Source of the DNA: Eledone cirrhosa
Taxonomy: Eukaryota
Assembly (NCBI GenBank): GCA_964016885.1
Contig: OZ024741.1
Span: forward strand, 307,644,001 to 307,708,000
DNA: 64,000 nucleotides
Reading direction: 5' to 3'
The notes below the pieces were generated by a model that was given only the letters and a program-made list of their open reading frames with translations, did not search any database and was not told the DNA's origin. Position 1 is the stretch's first letter; every line of letters begins with the position of its first letter. Shown piece by piece: positions 13,548 through 64,000 of this stretch. Made by a program: the position numbers and the translations under genes.

Positions 13548-13850
13548 AAAAATTTCGGCAAGGCCACCCGTAACTCGCTCGGTATGCAAGTGAGGCTACT
13601 CAGCCGATGTATACTTATGAAAATACTATATATTTTCAAACGTTCAACAGATTGCCAGAGGTATAGAGTCCTAATGAAGGGTAATAACCTAGAAACATGC
13701 TGATTGTTCCAAAATGCCAGTGTTGAACAAACGGATGACAAATCGTGGTCGGCACGGCACAGCTTTAATCGGGCCGTTTGTTTACAAACGAATAGAATAT
13801 TATTGTTAATATTCGATGTAACCCATTCGTACATATGTATATGTCGCCAA
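13548..13850 (+). mobile_element. Diverged copy of the non-coding hammerhead-bearing family U (see 24984-25412)
   Basis: Colinear blocks CTCG(G/A)TATGCAA..AGGCT.CTCAGCCG, ACGTTCAAC, CAGTGTTGAACAAA, TTTGTTTACAAAC; decayed hammerhead at 13666-13705. Confidence 0.75.
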
Positions 13851-23677: not shown

Positions 23678-23751
23678 GCAGTCTGATGATGTCACGACAC
23701 TCGCACACAGAACAGTGTGGCCAGTGCCGTCATTGAAATATATATCACAGC
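23678..23751 (+). ncRNA. Type-I hammerhead ribozyme motif
   Basis: GCAGT-CTGATGA-[ACGACACT..CACAC/GTGTG..AGTGCCGT]-GAAA-TATATA-TC|ACAGC. Confidence 0.7.
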
Positions 23752-23840
23752 ATTATTATTAAAGACCTTGAACATCTGAAACTACTTCGCTTTTACTTAT
23801 TCTCTCTCTCTATATATATAGAAGTAGTTCTAAATCAGTT

Positions 23841-23903: not shown

Positions 23904-24062
23904 GAGTGTTGTGGAGGCTATATATATATATATATATGTATATATATTAATAAGAGGAATTCCAACTTTGTCTGATTTACTCGTTTTATTTACAATCCTT
24001 TAAAATATATAATGGTATTATAATGAAATAGTATGATAGAATATTAAATTCTAAGTGTTAAT

Positions 24063-24101
24063 TGAACAAGTACTTTCATGCTTTCGCAATCTTCAGGTTC
24101 A
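24063..24101 (-). ncRNA. Minimal hammerhead ribozyme (mirror copy)
   Basis: Exact reverse complement of 24179-24217. Confidence 0.85.
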
Positions 24102-24178
24102 TAATATGTGGTGACAGTCGAGTTTGCAATTTTCAACTGACAGTTGAAAATTGCAAACTCGACTGTCACCACATATTA

Positions 24179-24217
24179 TGAACCTGAAGATTGCGAAAGC
24201 ATGAAAGTACTTGTTCA
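24179..24217 (+). ncRNA. Minimal type-I hammerhead ribozyme
   Basis: TGAAC-CTGAAGA-T-TGC-GAAA-GCA-T-GAAA-GTAC-TT|GTTCA: intact core, GNRA-capped stem II, palindromic loop 3. Confidence 0.88.
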
Positions 24218-24373
24218 ATTAACACTTAGAATTTAATATTCTATCATACTATTTCATTATAATACCATTATATATTTTAAAGGATTGTAAATAAAACGAG
24301 TAAATCAGACAAAGTTTGAATTCCTCTTATTAATATAATCTTCTATACACAATCATACACACCCGTGTATATT

Positions 24374-24508
<135 letters not shown>

Positions 24509-24509
24509 T

Positions 24510-24570
<61 letters not shown>

Positions 24571-24576
<6 letters not shown>

Positions 24577-25412
24577 ACAGATGTACAGTAGTATATATAT
24601 ATATATATATATATACATACATGCACTCATATATATATATGTACGTATTGATTCAACGAACATTTATTATAATGCTCGGTGTGTTCGTACAGTGTCTAGC
24701 AACCATCGTTGCTCATTTGTTCAACACTGACAAAGGAACGCTGTACTAGTTTCAAGCTTATTAGCTACGTATACCTTCCTGCCAGATGGTTGAACGTCTG
24801 AAAGTATAAACTTTCCTTGTGCACATTAATGGCTGAGCAGCCTCATTTGCATATCGAGTGAGTTAATCGGCCGGGGTACCGAAAACGCTGTATACATATA
24901 TGTATGTACGTATACATACTTATATTTAAGTAACAGCCGTACTAAGAGTGAGAAATAAAATTTCGATTCATTTTTTCCGTTTATCGTTTTCGGTACCCCG
25001 GCCGATTAACTAACTCGATATGCAAATTAGGCTGCTCAGCCGTTAATGTGCATAAGGAAAGTTTATACTTTCAGACGTTCAACCATCTGGCAGGAAGGTA
25101 TACTTTGCTGACGATAGCTAATAAGCTTGAAACTAGTACAGCGTTCCTTTGTCAGTGTTGAACAAATGAGCAACGATGGTTGCTAGACACTGTACGGCTT
25201 AATTCGGGATGTTTGTTTACAAACACACCGAGCATTATAATAAATGTTCGGTGAATCCATACGTACATATATATAAGTGTGCATGTATGTATATATATAC
25301 ATACATACTACTGTACGTCTGTATACATATATGTATGTACGTATACATACTTATATTTAAGTAACAGCCGTACTAAGAGTGAGAAATGAAATTTCGTTTC
25401 ATTTTTTCCGTT
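24571..25412. mobile_element. Family U element: inverted copy + partial tandem of a ~431-bp non-coding unit
   Basis: 24571-24887 is the reverse complement of ~24985-25327; 24888-24983 repeats 25319-25412. Confidence 0.85.
25103..25143 (+). ncRNA. Minimal type-I hammerhead ribozyme
   Basis: CTTTG-CTGACGA-T-AGCT-AATA-AGCT-T-GAAA-CTAG-TA|CAGCG. Confidence 0.82.
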
Positions 25413-25444
<32 letters not shown>

Positions 25445-25806
25445 TGTACATGTATATATATATATATCTGTGCGCGCGCGCGCGTGTGTGTGTGTGTACA
25501 CATACAAATATATTATATTTTGTTTAGAATGTTTGTTCTTATTGTTGCTATAGTTTTTACTGTAATTCTTGGTATTGTTGCTGGTACGTGACGGGATGAA
25601 AATAAAAATAAAATTGCTATTGTCATGCATGAATACACCCTAAGGAAATAAAAATTAGGTGAATGGGAAAGTAGATCGACCGAGTTGAAACAAGAAAATG
25701 CTGAGACAGTCATACAGCTTATTAAATTTGTAAAGCAGTTATCTTTAATAAGTGGATAGGTAGGGTGTTTATTTATCTATCTATCTATCTCTCTATCTAT
25801 CTATCC

Positions 25807-28399
25807 CACGATTCGATCTTTGAAGGACCAAAACGGACGCGTGATACGTGAGCCGAAGCAGATGTGTGCGGCCTTTCAGCGGTACTTTGCTTAGCTGTTC
25901 GGGCAGGGCGGCGCTCCGGGCGGGGCTATGGTTTTCGGTCCATACCTCGACGGCCTACCGCGACTCTCGGACAGCGAGGCAAAGTTCTGCGAAAAGCCGA
26001 TTTCAGCCGCTGAGATAGGGGACGCGTTGAGCCAATGCGGCAAACGCAAATCTCCAGGTCTCGACGGTCTACCCTACGAATTTTACGTAGCAATGCCGGA
26101 CTTATTCTCCGGTCTCCTGGAAGCGGTCTACTGCAACTGGCAACAGAACGGGAGAATTCCCAGTTCTGTGACCGGGGGCGTAGTCACACTAGTCAGGAAG
26201 AACGAGAATAAGGGGGATGACAATAGGCAACTTCCGGCCCATAACTCTGCTAAACACAGAGTTACAGATTTTGGTCAAAGTGTTGGCAAAGAGGCTGGCG
26301 CTTGTCGTCGAGAACCTGGTGGGAGAAGCGCAGACATGCGCAATCCTGACCAGGTCCATACACGACAGCCTCCACCTTCTGCGATACATCATAGAGAGGG
26401 TAGGGTGTAAACCCGGCTTCGGTGGGGTCCTGATCAACTTGGATCAGTCTAAGGCTTTCGATAGGGTTGACCATCGTTACCTGGATGCGGTGCTCGAGGC
26501 GGCAGGCTTCGGACCCGTGTTCAGGGGCTGGATTGCTGCAATGCATAACGACAACATCTGCTCAAGGGTTAAGGTGAACGGCTACCTCTCGGAGCCGTTC
26601 CATATCACGCGATCCATTCGACAGGGATGCCCTCTCTCCTCCCTTCTGTACGTATTGACTCTCGAGCCACTACTGCAGAGGTTGGAGCTATTGCGAGGCA
26701 TCCCTCTGGAGCCGGGACTGCGGAAAGCGGCGTCGGCCTACGCCGACGACGTGACAGTAATGGTGTCGAGCGCCTCGCAAATCGAGGAGGTCGGCCCCTT
26801 ACTGAAGGAATACGAAAGGTTCACAGGAGCGAAGCTAAACCGGGACAAGTCCATCGGTTTGCAACTCGGATCATGGAGAGGCAAGCCGATGCCTTCCGAT
26901 GGCGTCGTCTGACGCTGGACGGAAGGACCAGTAAAGCTGCTCGGGGTCTGGTTTGGTCCGGACCTCCAGGTGGAGAAGAACTGGAACGAAGTGTCGGCCA
27001 AGGTGTTTGCACTCACCCAGAAGTGGGCCGAGTGCAAACTATCATTGAAAGGTCGAGCGGAGGTGGCGAATACTTTTATATCGTCCCCCAACTACTACCG
27101 CTTGACCGTCGTGCCTTGTCCAGCCACAACGTTCGCCAAAATGGAGCGCGCGCTCTTCCAATTCCTTTGGAAGAGGCGGGCTCCTTTGGTGAGAAGATCC
27201 ATCTGCTGCCAACGCCCTTCCAACGGAGGGCTGGGGATGCCGTGGCTGACGATGCGCAAACACGCACTCAGGCTGCGGCATCTCTACGTATTCCTCACCG
27301 GACAACCGGTGTGGGCACCATTCGTGAGGCGAGCCTTCCCACGACTCGTCTAGCTGACCGAGCTGCAGTCCTGGGTCAAGCAAAGACCGAGAAAAATGGG
27401 TGACTGGTACATCGAATGTGCTCAGTCGCTCACAGCCCTCTGGCAGGCGGACCCGGCGATCAGTGGAGACTCCACTTCGTCATTCTATAGAAGTTTGATC
27501 CGCAGCAAGTGCGACGACGTCCTCGGTGAAACTCTGGGCGTAGAGGAAGATGAACTGGCCAGTCTGTTCGGTAGGACCTTCCGCCCGGGACCGATGGACA
27601 ACTTCCAAAAGTCCCTGGCCTGGCAGTGCTACCGAGGAGCTCTACCAGTTCGAGACAAGCTCTACAGACATGGGCACCCGGGCAGGGACCCTGCAAAAAA
27701 ATTCTGTCCGAGGTACGTACGAGACGAAGAAACCGTCGCGCACGCATTCATACACTGCCTGGGCGTCACCGACATGTGGGGCTATGTGGAACGACTATTG
27801 TCGCGGGTGGGACCAATCCAGTTGACCACCGAGTCCATTGTCATGATCAAACCGCCACCCTCCTTCAAAAAGGAAGGAGAGGCGGTTTTCCTTTGTGTGA
27901 TAGCTATGGCGAAAGAGGTTGTATGGTGAACAAGGTTGAAAGGGCTGAAGTCAGACACCTTTCTCTCCGGCCAACAACTGATTCTTTTTTTCAAATACCA
28001 CTTTTGAAGAAGAATCAGGATGGAGAGAGAGGTTCTGTACCCCAGCAAGTTTTATGAACGGTGGGTGAAAGTGGCGAGAATGGCCCGAGTGAATGGGCCT
28101 TCTCTCTATATCAGCCTGTAGGTTGAGGAAAAAGAGGAGGAGAGGAAAGGAGTACAAACTCTTCGTACTCCTGGAGATGACGGTTGCACATTTTTTTTCG
28201 GGGGTATGTGTTACCCATATGTAATGTCTTCCCCTATTGGGGAAAATCGATTAATTTTTAAATTGCATTTGTGATAATATTTTACACGTTTTTATTGTAT
28301 GTAAACTTCCCCCTTGTATTTTTCCCCTTCCTTTGTGCCCCTGTGGCTAATAAAGAAACATATCTATCTATATATCTATCTAACTATCTACCTATCTAT
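25807..28399 (+). mobile_element. Tx1/L1-clade LINE copy 1, 5'-truncated, (TCTA)n tail
   Basis: KSPGLDGLPYEFY, NFRPITLLNT, LDQSKAFDRVDH, IRQGCPLS, YADD, GGLGMP, C-terminal CP..ETVAH..HC, AATAAA then (TCTA)n; stops and frameshifts. Confidence 0.92.
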
Positions 28400-59616: not shown

Positions 59617-60850
59617 GACGACATTTTATTTACGGTGGTCAAACACAACAATATTGAACTAAATAGAGTAAAGAAAAGTATAATTGAATTCGTTAAAATG
59701 TATGACCTTAAGTTAGAAGTAGAAAGTGGTACCAAAATAGTTAATTTCCTTGATGTTATGTTTAACTTAAACTCTGGCTTTTATTACCCATTCATAAGCC
59801 CAATGAAAATTTAAACTATGTTAGTTATTACTCCAATCACTCTAAATCTGTAAAAAAAAGCAATTGTAAATAGTGTGCAAAAACGAATTAATAGAATATC
59901 AGCCAATAAAGCAATATTTGATGAAAATGCAGGACACTACAATGAAGCGTTAAAAAGAGCAGGATATGAGAATAATATAGAATATGTAGATAATAATTGT
60001 TTCTACTTTAGGCACAAGGCCAGCAATTACCCAGTGCAGTAGATAATAATAATCCAAGTTTTAATCCTGATAAAAATAATGGCATATATAAACGAAATTC
60101 TAATAATTATAATTCAAACACTCATACGGTGAACAAATCGAGGAAAAGAACCAGAATTAAATCAGTTATATGGTTTCCTCCCCCCCCCCGCTTCCGTAGC
60201 AGTAACAACACCAATAGCAAACCTATTCTTTAAAGCTTTGGACAGCTCTTTCCCTAGTCAACATAAATACCATTCCATTTTTAATAGACACACTATTAAA
60301 TTATCTTATTCTACAACTATGAATATGGCCCAAAACATTGCTAAAATAAACAGTAAAATTCTAAAGCAGAATCAGCATAATGATTTTAATAATAGTGTTA
60401 ACATAAATAATAATAAATCAAAATGTAATTGTAGAAATAAACCAGATTGCCCTCTGCAAAATAATTGTTTGGACAGTAATTTGGTGTATAAATGTACCGT
60501 AAAAACTGATTACAACACATACAACTACATAGGATCGACTTCTTCTACATTTAAGGCTAGATTTGCGAATCATAAATGCTCATTTTCGAATTCTAATAGG
60601 AAATCATCGACTTCTTTGTCACAGCTTATATGATCATTAAAAGACAAAAAATTAAAATACTCCATCTTTTGGACGAAACTTTGTAATAATGGAGTTTATC
60701 GCAACTCAAGTATATCAAGTACAATGGAGACCCTTTTGATTATTAATAATTATGAAAACTTAATTAACAAAAAAAGTGAATTATTCTCAAACTGCCTTCA
60801 TAAAGCTTTGTCTACATTCCAAGCCTCGCATAAGATCAGGAAAAAACAGT
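59615..60850 (+). pseudogene. Penelope-like element relic: RT thumb + Cys-rich linker + GIY-YIG endonuclease
   Basis: VNFLDV, NYVSYYSNH, KRINRIS, YNEALKRAGY, IWF.PP, IKLSYST, CNCR..DCPL...C, VYKC...YIGST..FKARF..H. Confidence 0.9.
59998..60038 (-). mobile_element. 41-bp 3' tip of SINE family A with 12-bp TSD, inside the Penelope ORF
   Basis: TSD GTAGATAATAAT at 59986-59997 and 60039-60050. Confidence 0.85.
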
Positions 60851-63228: not shown

Positions 63229-63294
63229 ATTTTATCTGATGAGGACGTACTGTTGAACCTGATTCAAGTACCTCTGAAATATGTACAATAAAAT
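63229..63294 (+). ncRNA. Type-I hammerhead motif (U16.1 changed to C, probably impaired)
   Basis: ATTTTAT-CTGATGA-GGACGTAC..TTGAA/TTCAA..GTACCTCT-GAAA-TATGTA-CA|ATAAAAT. Confidence 0.72.
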
Positions 63295-63429
63295 TTAATT
63301 GATCACAAGAACATCTATTTTGTTAATATTTGAATTTAATATTAATAACTCTGGAAAATATTTTTCTGTAGAGTGCTTCCAATCTACTGTAAAACTCATT
63401 CTTTGATGTACTCATTGAATCTTGTTTAA

Positions 63430-63498
<69 letters not shown>

Positions 63499-63523
63499 GT
63501 TAAACAAGATTCAATGAGTACAT

Positions 63524-63705
63524 CACCGAGCATTATAATAAATGTTCGGTGAATCCATACGTACATATATATATGTGTGTATGTATGTATATATATATAC
63601 ATACTACTGTACGTCTGTATACATATATGTACGTATACATACTTATATTTAAGTAACAGCCGTACTAAGAGTGAGAAATGAAATTTCGTTTCATTTTTTC
63701 CGTTT
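63524..63705 (+). mobile_element. 3' part of family U element
   Basis: Near-identical to 25226-25412 (CACCGAGCATTATAATAAATGTTCGGTG...TTTTTTCCGTTT). Confidence 0.88.
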
Positions 63706-64000
63706 ATATATATATATATAGTAATAATAATAAATATATATATAATATATATATATGAAATCAATTTAATTTAATTAAATTGAGGGAGTCACGTCCGAGA
63801 CATGCGCCATAGCCACCGTAGAATAAGCTCAAAGATCTCAATGAATAGATCCGAGCATTTTATATCAACTAGAAATTGATTGACATATATATATATTTAA
63901 AATAAACACATGAAACAATCACAGGGGATAATTTGTAAAGTGTGTAATCACACATAGTTATGTAGGTAACTAATTAAAGTTAAACTAGAGCTTCAAATAT

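What the first reader, a model, noticed from the sequence alone, without database searches (positions are those of the whole stretch)
24571..25412. Family U: a ~431-nt ORF-less unit with retrozyme-like partial tandem and a core-deleted inverted copy
Seen: the unit's last ~95 bp (24888-24983) directly precede a full unit, giving a head-to-tail junction with period 431. An inverted copy lies upstream, and it has lost the CTGA core (AGCTA-CGT-ATACC vs AGCTATCGTCAGCAAAGTATACC). Further family members lie at 13548-13850 and 63524-63705. The unit contains an octamer motif ATGCAAAT upstream of the ribozyme. Inference: a permuted tandem is what reverse transcription of a circular or tandem RNA would leave; it also matches Penelope pLTR architecture.
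Basis: partly seen in the sequence, partly recalled or inferred. Interest (0 to 1): 0.75.

Follow-up and report, generated by a model that had tools for sequence, protein, structure and literature searches.

The report
Ribozyme retroposon carrying an snRNA-type promoter
This is one dead-end insertion of a 431-base non-coding repeat with over 10,000 copies in the genome; each unit carries a predicted self-cutting RNA behind DNA signals that match the host's small-nuclear-RNA promoters, so the family likely transcribes itself and likely borrows Penelope-type retrotransposon enzymes to spread.

Summary
The locus is one insertion with two head-to-head arms set in (TA)n. The family has at least 10,046 exact hammerhead cores genome-wide. 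In 80 loci taken in genome order, 25 of 26 intact arm pairs have one arm ending at unit ~370 and the other at 431. Coding Neptune-like elements in this genome show the same one-sided tail. No arm continues into a Penelope ORF. It is therefore a non-LTR retrozyme (known kind), likely moved by Penelope-type enzymes.

The octamer is part of a 12-bp box at -77 to -79 in 5 of 6 host U6-type genes tested (RNase P lacks it) and in 0 of 9 U1/U2 promoters. The unit also carries the U1/U2-type TCAG core and a TATA-like box. Predicted +1 is near 25092, at the ribozyme's 5' strand. Several other hammerhead families share this layout; hammerheads of coding Neptunes do not.

Transcription, cleavage and circles were not tested, and the polymerase is unresolved. 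This locus has only one intact ribozyme and cannot release a monomer. The scan noted this system before on other DNA of this genome.

The parts
24418..24567 (.). (TA)n target microsatellite, left flank
   Evidence: sequence
24568..24887 (-). Short arm: unit 2 to ~348, ends in (TA)n without the tail; 10-nt deletion of the CTGACGA core and a 25-nt deletion
   Evidence: shares variants 12A, 65G, 80T, 184T with the + arm; 7/239 differences
24842..24853 (-). 12-bp promoter-like box of the short arm (TGAG variant)
24888..24983 (+). 5'-truncated first unit of the long arm (unit 336-431), the pseudo-LTR-like partial tandem
   Evidence: 94/96 identical
24984..25414 (+). Full 431-nt unit of family A, 36.7% GC, no Met-ORF over 68 aa even when tripled in silico
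25019..25030 (+). Box TATGCAAATTAG, identical to the box at -78 of a host U6 gene
25036..25040 (+). TCAGC, resembling the TCAGT/TCAAT core at -56 to -58 of host U1/U2 genes; 56 nt before the predicted +1
25061..25068 (+). TATA-like element; this locus has the rarer GTTTATAC, family majority GTATATAC
25077..25083 (+). 5' strand of the extended stem, predicted to pair with 25157-25163; lies upstream of the predicted +1
25092..25148 (+). Type I hammerhead: predicted +1 at 25092; CUGACGA 25108-25114; stem II 25116-25127 over a U.U mismatch; GAAA 25129-25132; palindrome ACUAGU 25132-25137; predicted cleavage after 25138
   Evidence: sequence; stems covary in families B-E
25354..25414 (+). ~60-nt tail present at the end of long arms only; holds a hairpin (~25380-25407) and a T6 run (25402-25407)
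25415..25432 (.). (TA)n target microsatellite, right flank
   Evidence: sequence
13548..13843 (+). Copy of the older sister family B (about 70% to A); same box, TCAG core and TATA; its core reads CTAATGA
63524..63706 (+). 5'-truncated long arm of family A (unit 243-431), no ribozyme

Best explanation
The locus is a single head-to-head insertion, in (TA)n, of a high-copy non-coding hammerhead repeat (non-LTR retrozyme) that is likely copied by Neptune-type Penelope enzymes from a circular or multimeric RNA and that likely carries its own snRNA-type promoter. Proposed cycle. (1, inferred) Box + TCAG core + TATA in one unit start transcription near unit 109. (2, inferred) In arrays the RNA runs through the unit end into the next unit and so copies that unit's promoter. 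(3, inferred from anatomy and known chemistry) Two hammerheads pair through the ACUAGU palindrome and cut at GUA, releasing a 431-nt monomer. The extended stem would hold its ends together for ligation into a circle. (4, inferred from the shown end pattern) A Penelope RT/GIY-YIG enzyme cuts (TA)n and makes two cDNA arms from one template lineage, primed at unit ~370 and 431 and truncated at random 5' points. Shown: copy number, arm geometry, targets, shared origin of both arms, promoter-like motifs, and no coding partner upstream in the sample. This copy is a dead end, with one intact ribozyme.
For: 10,046 exact cores. In 80 loci taken in genome order, 3' ends fall at ~370 (56 arms) or 431 (57 arms) of 128, and 25 of 26 intact head-to-head pairs are one of each. 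42 of 56 non-junction long-end matches are followed by (TA)n. A coding RT+GIY-YIG family has the same short/long asymmetry with a ~45-nt tail, matching the anatomy described in PMC8557442. Opposite arms differ by 3.9% and tandem neighbours by 3.3%, against 8.3% between loci. 13 of 40 arm pairs share a rare variant, against 202 of 10,611 unrelated pairs. 5' ends are scattered, with no pile-up at the cleavage site. The box lies at -77 to -79 with TATA at -30 in three U6 loci, U6atac and RNase MRP (the last two examined after the idea was noted), and in 0 of 9 U1/U2 promoters. TCAGT/TCAAT lies at -56 to -58 in 9 of 9 U1/U2 and 0 of 5 U6-type promoters. A U1/U2 model places +1 at box+73/74 in families A, B and C as its best site in the region (shuffle P 0.025, 0.0035, 0.033). 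Four other hammerhead families (C, D, E, I) met incidentally carry the box 95-106 nt before CUGA, and coding-Neptune hammerheads do not.
Against: No RNA, cleavage or circle data. RNase P, a held-out gene expected by recall to be U6-type, lacks the box. Box-to-TATA distance is 43-46 nt in families A-D against 47-49 in host genes, and this spacing is tightly kept in insects (PMC1761439). The U1/U2 model is weak: leave-one-out scores run from -13 to +17, A scores -10, and 7 of 11 heads were not significant. About a third of A copies have TTGG in place of TTAG in the box. A-versus-B identity at the box (11/12) is not far above other conserved stretches. TATA-like strings are common in this genome. 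A T6 and a T4 at the unit end would stop Pol III before it copied the next promoter. No coding partner with a homologous end was found among 50 GIY-YIG loci. Only 9 of 80 loci have two intact cores in one arm.
Confidence: 0.7

Rival explanations
1. Same element and mobiliser, but the octamer is an ordinary POU-factor site or part of an RNA hairpin, and the RNA comes by read-through from flanking promoters.
For: The spacing differs from host U6-type genes. The box lies in a predicted hairpin of the RNA. The extended stem begins at box+50 to +59, upstream of the predicted +1, so this region is also under RNA-level selection. The families may share one ancestor, so they are not independent tests.
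Against: The box matches host U6-type promoters over 12 letters and has a background of about 10 unrelated hits in 944 kb, three of which were further hammerhead families. It keeps one orientation and distance to a TATA, with a TCAG core at U1/U2 spacing. Family E has full U6 spacing (offset 48).
Confidence: 0.25
2. The template is a linear multimeric transcript of tandem source arrays. The ribozyme trims ends or cuts rarely, and no circle is needed.
For: Arms cross both the cleavage site and the 431|1 junction, which a linear multimer explains as well as a circle. Hammerheads with short stem III cut poorly, and 8 of 9 Xenopus dimers gave no cleavage in 10.64898/2026.07.22.740005.
Against: Stems I, II and the stem III palindrome are kept by compensating changes across families. 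The extended stem joins what would be the two ends of a monomer. Circles are shown for coral, mussel and axolotl retrozymes (PMC7229834). This rival differs from the best reading only in step 3.
Confidence: 0.3
3. The unit is only the pseudo-LTR/3' end of a coding Penelope-like element, seen as truncated copies.
For: Identical insertion anatomy. The 194-bp palindrome 250 bp upstream is exactly such a truncated end of a coding family. Xenopus retrozymes resemble pLTRs.
Against: All 63 unit starts follow the unit's own 3' end (59 clearly, 4 by a short piece). 0 of 128 arms have a hit to the 23 coding ORFs upstream. The 3 of 50 GIY-YIG loci holding the unit have it as a separate insertion where inspected (2 read).
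Confidence: 0.06
4. A DNA-level satellite or fold-back element spread by recombination.
For: Family D forms long arrays (at least 29 units at C1:5.74 Mb).
Against: Family A is dispersed, with at most 5 units per arm in 80 loci, fixed 3' ends and random 5' truncation. That pattern is typical of target-primed reverse transcription.
Confidence: 0.02

Closest known systems
Metazoan non-LTR retrozymes (Cervera and de la Pena 2020, PMC7229834; Li, Clavereau and Pollet, bioRxiv 10.64898/2026.07.22.740005)
   Same: Short non-coding low-GC unit with a type I hammerhead, monomers to multimers, co-existing with Penelope-like elements proposed as mobilisers. The U.U at the base of stem II recalls axolotl HHR_Amex2.
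   Different: The parts read describe no internal promoter and no head-to-head arms with a one-sided tail. RNA circles are shown for those species and not here. No homologous coding pLTR was found here, unlike Xenopus.
Endonuclease-bearing Penelope-like elements, Neptune type (PMC8557442; hammerheads in PMC4209133)
   Same: Partial tandem, inverted 5'-truncated arm, tail at one end only, (TA)n targets, hammerhead with palindromic stem III expected to work as a dimer.
   Different: No RT or GIY-YIG ORF. The tail is ~60 nt, not 30-40. The hammerhead follows a promoter-like module that coding-Neptune hammerheads here lack.
Newt satellite 2 (snRNA-type Pol II promoter) and schistosome satellite (Pol III promoter), known here only as cited in PMC2220036; the original papers were not held
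   Same: Hammerhead repeat with a promoter inside the unit.
   Different: Here the module combines the host's U6-type box with a U1/U2-type core, recurs in several families, and goes with clear Penelope-type insertion marks. That the newt promoter has an octamer is recalled, not checked.

Membership tests
Non-LTR retrozyme | Type I hammerhead in the unit | tested here: met
   Core letters and stems I-III in sequence; compensating changes across families. Below Rfam detection.
Non-LTR retrozyme | Short (150-450 bp), low-GC, non-coding unit in tandem copies | tested here: met
   431 nt, 36.7% GC, longest Met-ORF 68 aa; 58 of 128 arms span two or more units, up to 5.
Non-LTR retrozyme | Two consecutive units with complete hammerheads ('active' by Li et al.) | tested here: met
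   Met for the family in 9 of 80 loci; not met at this locus, which has one intact core.
Non-LTR retrozyme | Self-cleavage and circular RNA in vivo | not testable with these tools
   Needs bench work or raw RNA reads.
Autonomous Penelope-like element | RT + GIY-YIG ORF | tested here: not met
   No ORF in the unit; 0 of 128 arms with a hit upstream.
Penelope-mobilised insertion | Partial tandem, inverted truncated arm, one-sided tail, microsatellite target | tested here: met
   25 of 26 intact pairs short+long; (TA)n flanks; same pattern in a coding family.
Penelope-mobilised insertion | Homology to the end of an identified coding partner | tested here: inconclusive
   None among 50 GIY-YIG loci out of 10,596 candidates.
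U6-type (type 3 Pol III) promoter | Host upstream box plus TATA | tested here: met
   12/12 match to a host U6 box; TATA-like element present.
U6-type (type 3 Pol III) promoter | Host box-to-TATA spacing and G at +1 | tested here: not met
   43-45 nt in A against 47-49, predicted +1 is A. Family E has offset 48 and a G at box+78.
U6-type (type 3 Pol III) promoter | No T4 in the transcribed part, T-run at the end | tested here: inconclusive
   Pattern present in A, B and D, but chance is 0.07-0.35 for A.
U1/U2-type (Pol II snRNA) promoter | TCAGT-like core at -56 to -58, TATA-like at about -30, A at +1 | tested here: inconclusive
   TCAGC at -56 from A109; shuffle P 0.025 for this copy, 0.115 for an older A copy; weak model from 9 promoters.
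snRNA-type promoter | Drives transcription from the predicted start | not testable with these tools
   Needs 5'-end mapping and mutants.

The most novel reading that the evidence does not exclude
A clade of animal retrozymes has captured a host snRNA promoter that sits upstream of its own start site and would normally be lost on retrotransposition. It keeps that promoter by reading through into the next unit and cutting out a promoter-carrying RNA circle with a dimeric hammerhead, which Neptune-type enzymes paste back as tandems. Ribozyme, tandem and promoter are then one self-renewing device. The U6-box/U1-core hybrid may be what lets the polymerase pass the T-run.
Probability: 0.45. Interest if true: 0.7.

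Novelty: new variant of a known kind. Interest (0 to 1): 0.52.

Why it matters
Two questions are left open in the retrozyme papers read: which enzyme moves animal retrozymes, and how they are transcribed so widely. This family gives sequence-level answers that can be tested directly: Penelope-type insertion marks at 25 of 26 intact pairs, and a defined promoter module with a predicted start site. It also gives the hammerhead a clear job, namely to keep an upstream promoter in the copied unit. The element class is known, promoter-bearing hammerhead satellites have a precedent in newt and schistosome, and this particular copy is an ordinary decayed insertion.

Tried and rejected
Rfam: no hammerhead model matched; only sub-threshold hairpin hits. 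Sequencing runs: no RNA holder listed. Laying contigs of four coded runs showed only family variants and says nothing on expression. RNA-editing scars, a lead from note e1-8803865 on another family: not reproduced in family A (rare A>G 42 vs T>C 39, P=1.0; mid-frequency sites 8 vs 1, P=0.04, one of 12 tests). 5' ends do not pile up at the cleavage site (156) or clearly at the predicted +1; ends scored as '1' run on into the previous tail. The sample was chosen for an intact core, which biases this. Partner search: no end homology in 50 GIY-YIG loci. A second tblastn with 16 added ORFs was spoiled by junk queries that include the unit's own antisense frame; it showed only scattered RT fragments at varied distances and strands. 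The motif-based end counts and the short-end 'other' class were spoiled by loose patterns and are not used. Genome-wide box + CTGANGA counts (8,589 at ~73-101 nt excluding A/B, against 258 at 130-158 nt) count copies, not independent families. Families F, G and H were fetched with that pattern and are not independent support. RNase P lacks the box. The other 14 U6 and 7 U6atac hits examined lack the box; I read them as pseudogenes, which is untested. The fold-back check at 63.4 kb used wrong coordinates; that item is read by eye. Not-in-print claim: searches listed no paper on an snRNA-type promoter in invertebrate retrozymes (listing level, open-licence library only). The preprint's supplements were not seen and may list related families.

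Full report
Observation. The window is G000:C2:307644001-307708000 of a 3.0-Gb animal genome. All stated pieces are present. 24984-25414 is a 431-nt unit. 24888-24983 repeats unit 336-431 directly before it. An inverted copy covers unit 2 to ~348 from 24887 down to about 24568, with a 10-nt deletion of the catalytic core and a 25-nt deletion. 63524-63706 is unit 243-431, and 13571-13844 is a 70% relative. Both ends of the locus lie in (TA)n. The unit is 36.7% GC and has no Met-ORF over 68 aa.

Ribozyme. The unit holds CUGACGA (25108-25114), a 4-bp stem II over a U.U mismatch, GAAA, the palindrome ACUAGU and GUA ending at 25138, closed by a stem I with an internal loop. Stem III has two pairs and a 2-nt loop, and two copies can pair through the palindrome (-6.8 kcal/mol). 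PMC4209133 (passages) states that such hammerheads work as dimers. Rfam does not detect the motif. Family B keeps the stems with other letters (stem II GGGU/ACCC, palindrome ACAUGU), and so do families C and D; E keeps stem II. Cleavage was not tested.

Family and insertion anatomy. The 31-nt core occurs exactly 10,046 times, control 0. I fetched 80 loci covering the first 100 listed matches on C1; they are chosen for an intact core and not otherwise. They hold 128 arms. 56 arms end at unit ~370, 57 at 431 and 15 elsewhere. Of 35 head-to-head pairs, 9 have a damaged end; of the other 26, 25 join a short and a long arm and 1 joins two short arms. 42 of 56 non-junction long-end matches run into (TA)n. 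5' ends are scattered. 58 arms span two or more units, up to 5. Arms of one locus are closer (3.9%; tandem neighbours 3.3%) than copies at different loci (8.3%), and they share rare variants in 13 of 40 pairs against 202 of 10,611. The two arms in the window differ at 7 of 239 sites and share the rare variants 65G and 80T, so this is one insertion. Its short arm lost the core and only one intact core remains.

Mobiliser. The genome has 10,596 GIY-YIG candidates, including long RT + GIY-YIG ORFs whose cysteine linker I recall as Neptune-type. One coding family shows the same short and long ends in (TA)n with a ~45-nt tail; a truncated head-to-head pair of it is the palindrome at 23946-24334. 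PMC8557442 (passages) lists partial tandems, an inverted truncated arm, a one-sided tail and (TA)n bias as Penelope-like features. Family A is not the end of such an element in the sample. 59 of 63 unit starts follow the unit's tail and the other 4 a short piece of it, and 0 of 128 arms have a hit to 23 coding ORFs within 1.5 kb upstream. No homologous partner was found in 50 GIY-YIG loci, so the enzyme assignment is by anatomy only.

Promoter module. Three independent host U6 loci carry TATGC(A/T)AAT(G/T)AG at -77 to -79 and TATA at -30. After noting the idea I examined U6atac and RNase MRP, which both have it (one mismatch in U6atac), and RNase P, which does not. 0 of 9 U1/U2 promoters have it; the best match within -120 was 9/12 in those scored. 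The unit has the box at 36-47 and a TATA-like element 43-45 nt after the box start, against 47-49 in host genes. In insects this spacing is tightly kept (PMC1761439, passages), so the unit is not a plain U6 promoter. All 9 U1/U2 promoters, and none of the 5 U6-type ones, have TCAGT/TCAAT at -56 to -58. Families A, B and C have TCAGC, TCAGT and TCACC at box+17. A U1/U2 model puts its best site at box+73/74, an A after C, with shuffle P 0.025, 0.0035 and 0.033; 7 of 11 heads were not significant and the model is weak. For A this start is unit 109 (25092), the first base of hammerhead stem I. Outside A/B and the snRNA genes the box class occurred at about 10 independent places in 944 kb, three of them ahead of other hammerheads. 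Of 19 hammerhead-like clusters in the DNA held, 7 have the box 87-106 nt upstream and 12 do not, among them the coding-Neptune one. C, D, E and I were first met without a box-based search. Family E has full U6 spacing. Against the reading: 28 of about 90 scored A copies have TTGG in the box, and these families may share one ancestor.

Mechanism. A promoter upstream of +1 would be lost on retrotransposition, yet copies keep it, so the template must contain unit 1-108. The extended stem also begins at box+50 to +59, before the predicted +1, in all five families examined. Both points fit read-through into the next unit and release of a unit-length RNA by two hammerheads. The monomer folds as a circle with 71% of bases paired and its two ends held together; the linear unit has z -8.45, partly from its TA-rich hairpins. 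7 of 80 loci have a box-plus-ribozyme unit followed by a second ribozyme region and could be sources. A T6 and a T4 at the unit end would hinder Pol III, so Pol II of the snRNA type is at least as likely. Circle versus linear multimer cannot be told from DNA. A test for A-to-G editing scars was negative.

Comparison and novelty. PMC7229834 (parts 2-4 of 6 and passages) defines non-LTR retrozymes, shows circles in coral, mussel and axolotl, and proposes Penelope-like elements as mobilisers. bioRxiv 10.64898/2026.07.22.740005 (parts 1-3 of 5, supplements not seen) ties them to pLTRs. The family meets the sequence-level criteria. Internal promoters are reported for newt satellite 2 (snRNA type, Pol II) and a schistosome satellite (Pol III), seen only as cited in PMC2220036. 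My literature searches listed no report of this module in invertebrate retrozymes. Earlier AI notes of this scan reached the same reading on other DNA of this genome; they are not independent evidence. Verdict: a real element, a new variant of a known kind. About 0.9 for a Penelope-moved retrozyme, about 0.65 that the module is a working promoter, interest 0.52.

Noticed in passing
window 23946-24334: Palindrome of 194-bp arms (1 mismatch): two head-to-head truncated 3' ends of a coding Neptune-like family, each with a hammerhead (+ core at 24184), one short end and one with a ~45-nt tail.
   Followed up: yes
window ~23683-23755: Another hammerhead-like motif with a long stem II, probably the end of a further Penelope-like family.
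   Followed up: no
window 63404-63525: The truncated copy at 63524 is preceded by a 29-bp inverted duplicate of the flank around a (TA)n tract, as if the cut target folded back and was copied; read by eye. The flank itself ends a hammerhead-bearing repeat (core near 63236).
   Followed up: partly
G000:C1:5738350-5751969 and C1:14044559-14050763 (L246-L268): Family D (466-469 nt, box + hammerhead + 3' hairpin like A) forms arrays of at least 29 and 14 units.
   Followed up: partly
L093:4386; L271; L272: Family E: hammerhead behind a box with full U6 spacing (TATA offset 48, G at box+78).
   Followed up: partly
L299 (G000:C24:12936134): The RNase P RNA gene lacks the U6-type box but has the U1/U2-type TCAGT upstream and a T-run after it; its polymerase is unclear.
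   Followed up: no
L146-L163, L289-L298: Host U1/U2 promoters carry a TATA-like element at about -30, and U6 and U2 share a CTCCCTT-like motif near -265 (seen by eye) that the unit lacks.
   Followed up: partly
L237, L019 and C1:357812644: A repeat with the box only 24 nt before the TATA-like element and a degenerate hammerhead start.
   Followed up: no
window ~25800-27900 and 59617-60837: Broken LINE-type RT region downstream of the locus, and a Penelope-like ORF remnant near 60 kb.
   Followed up: no
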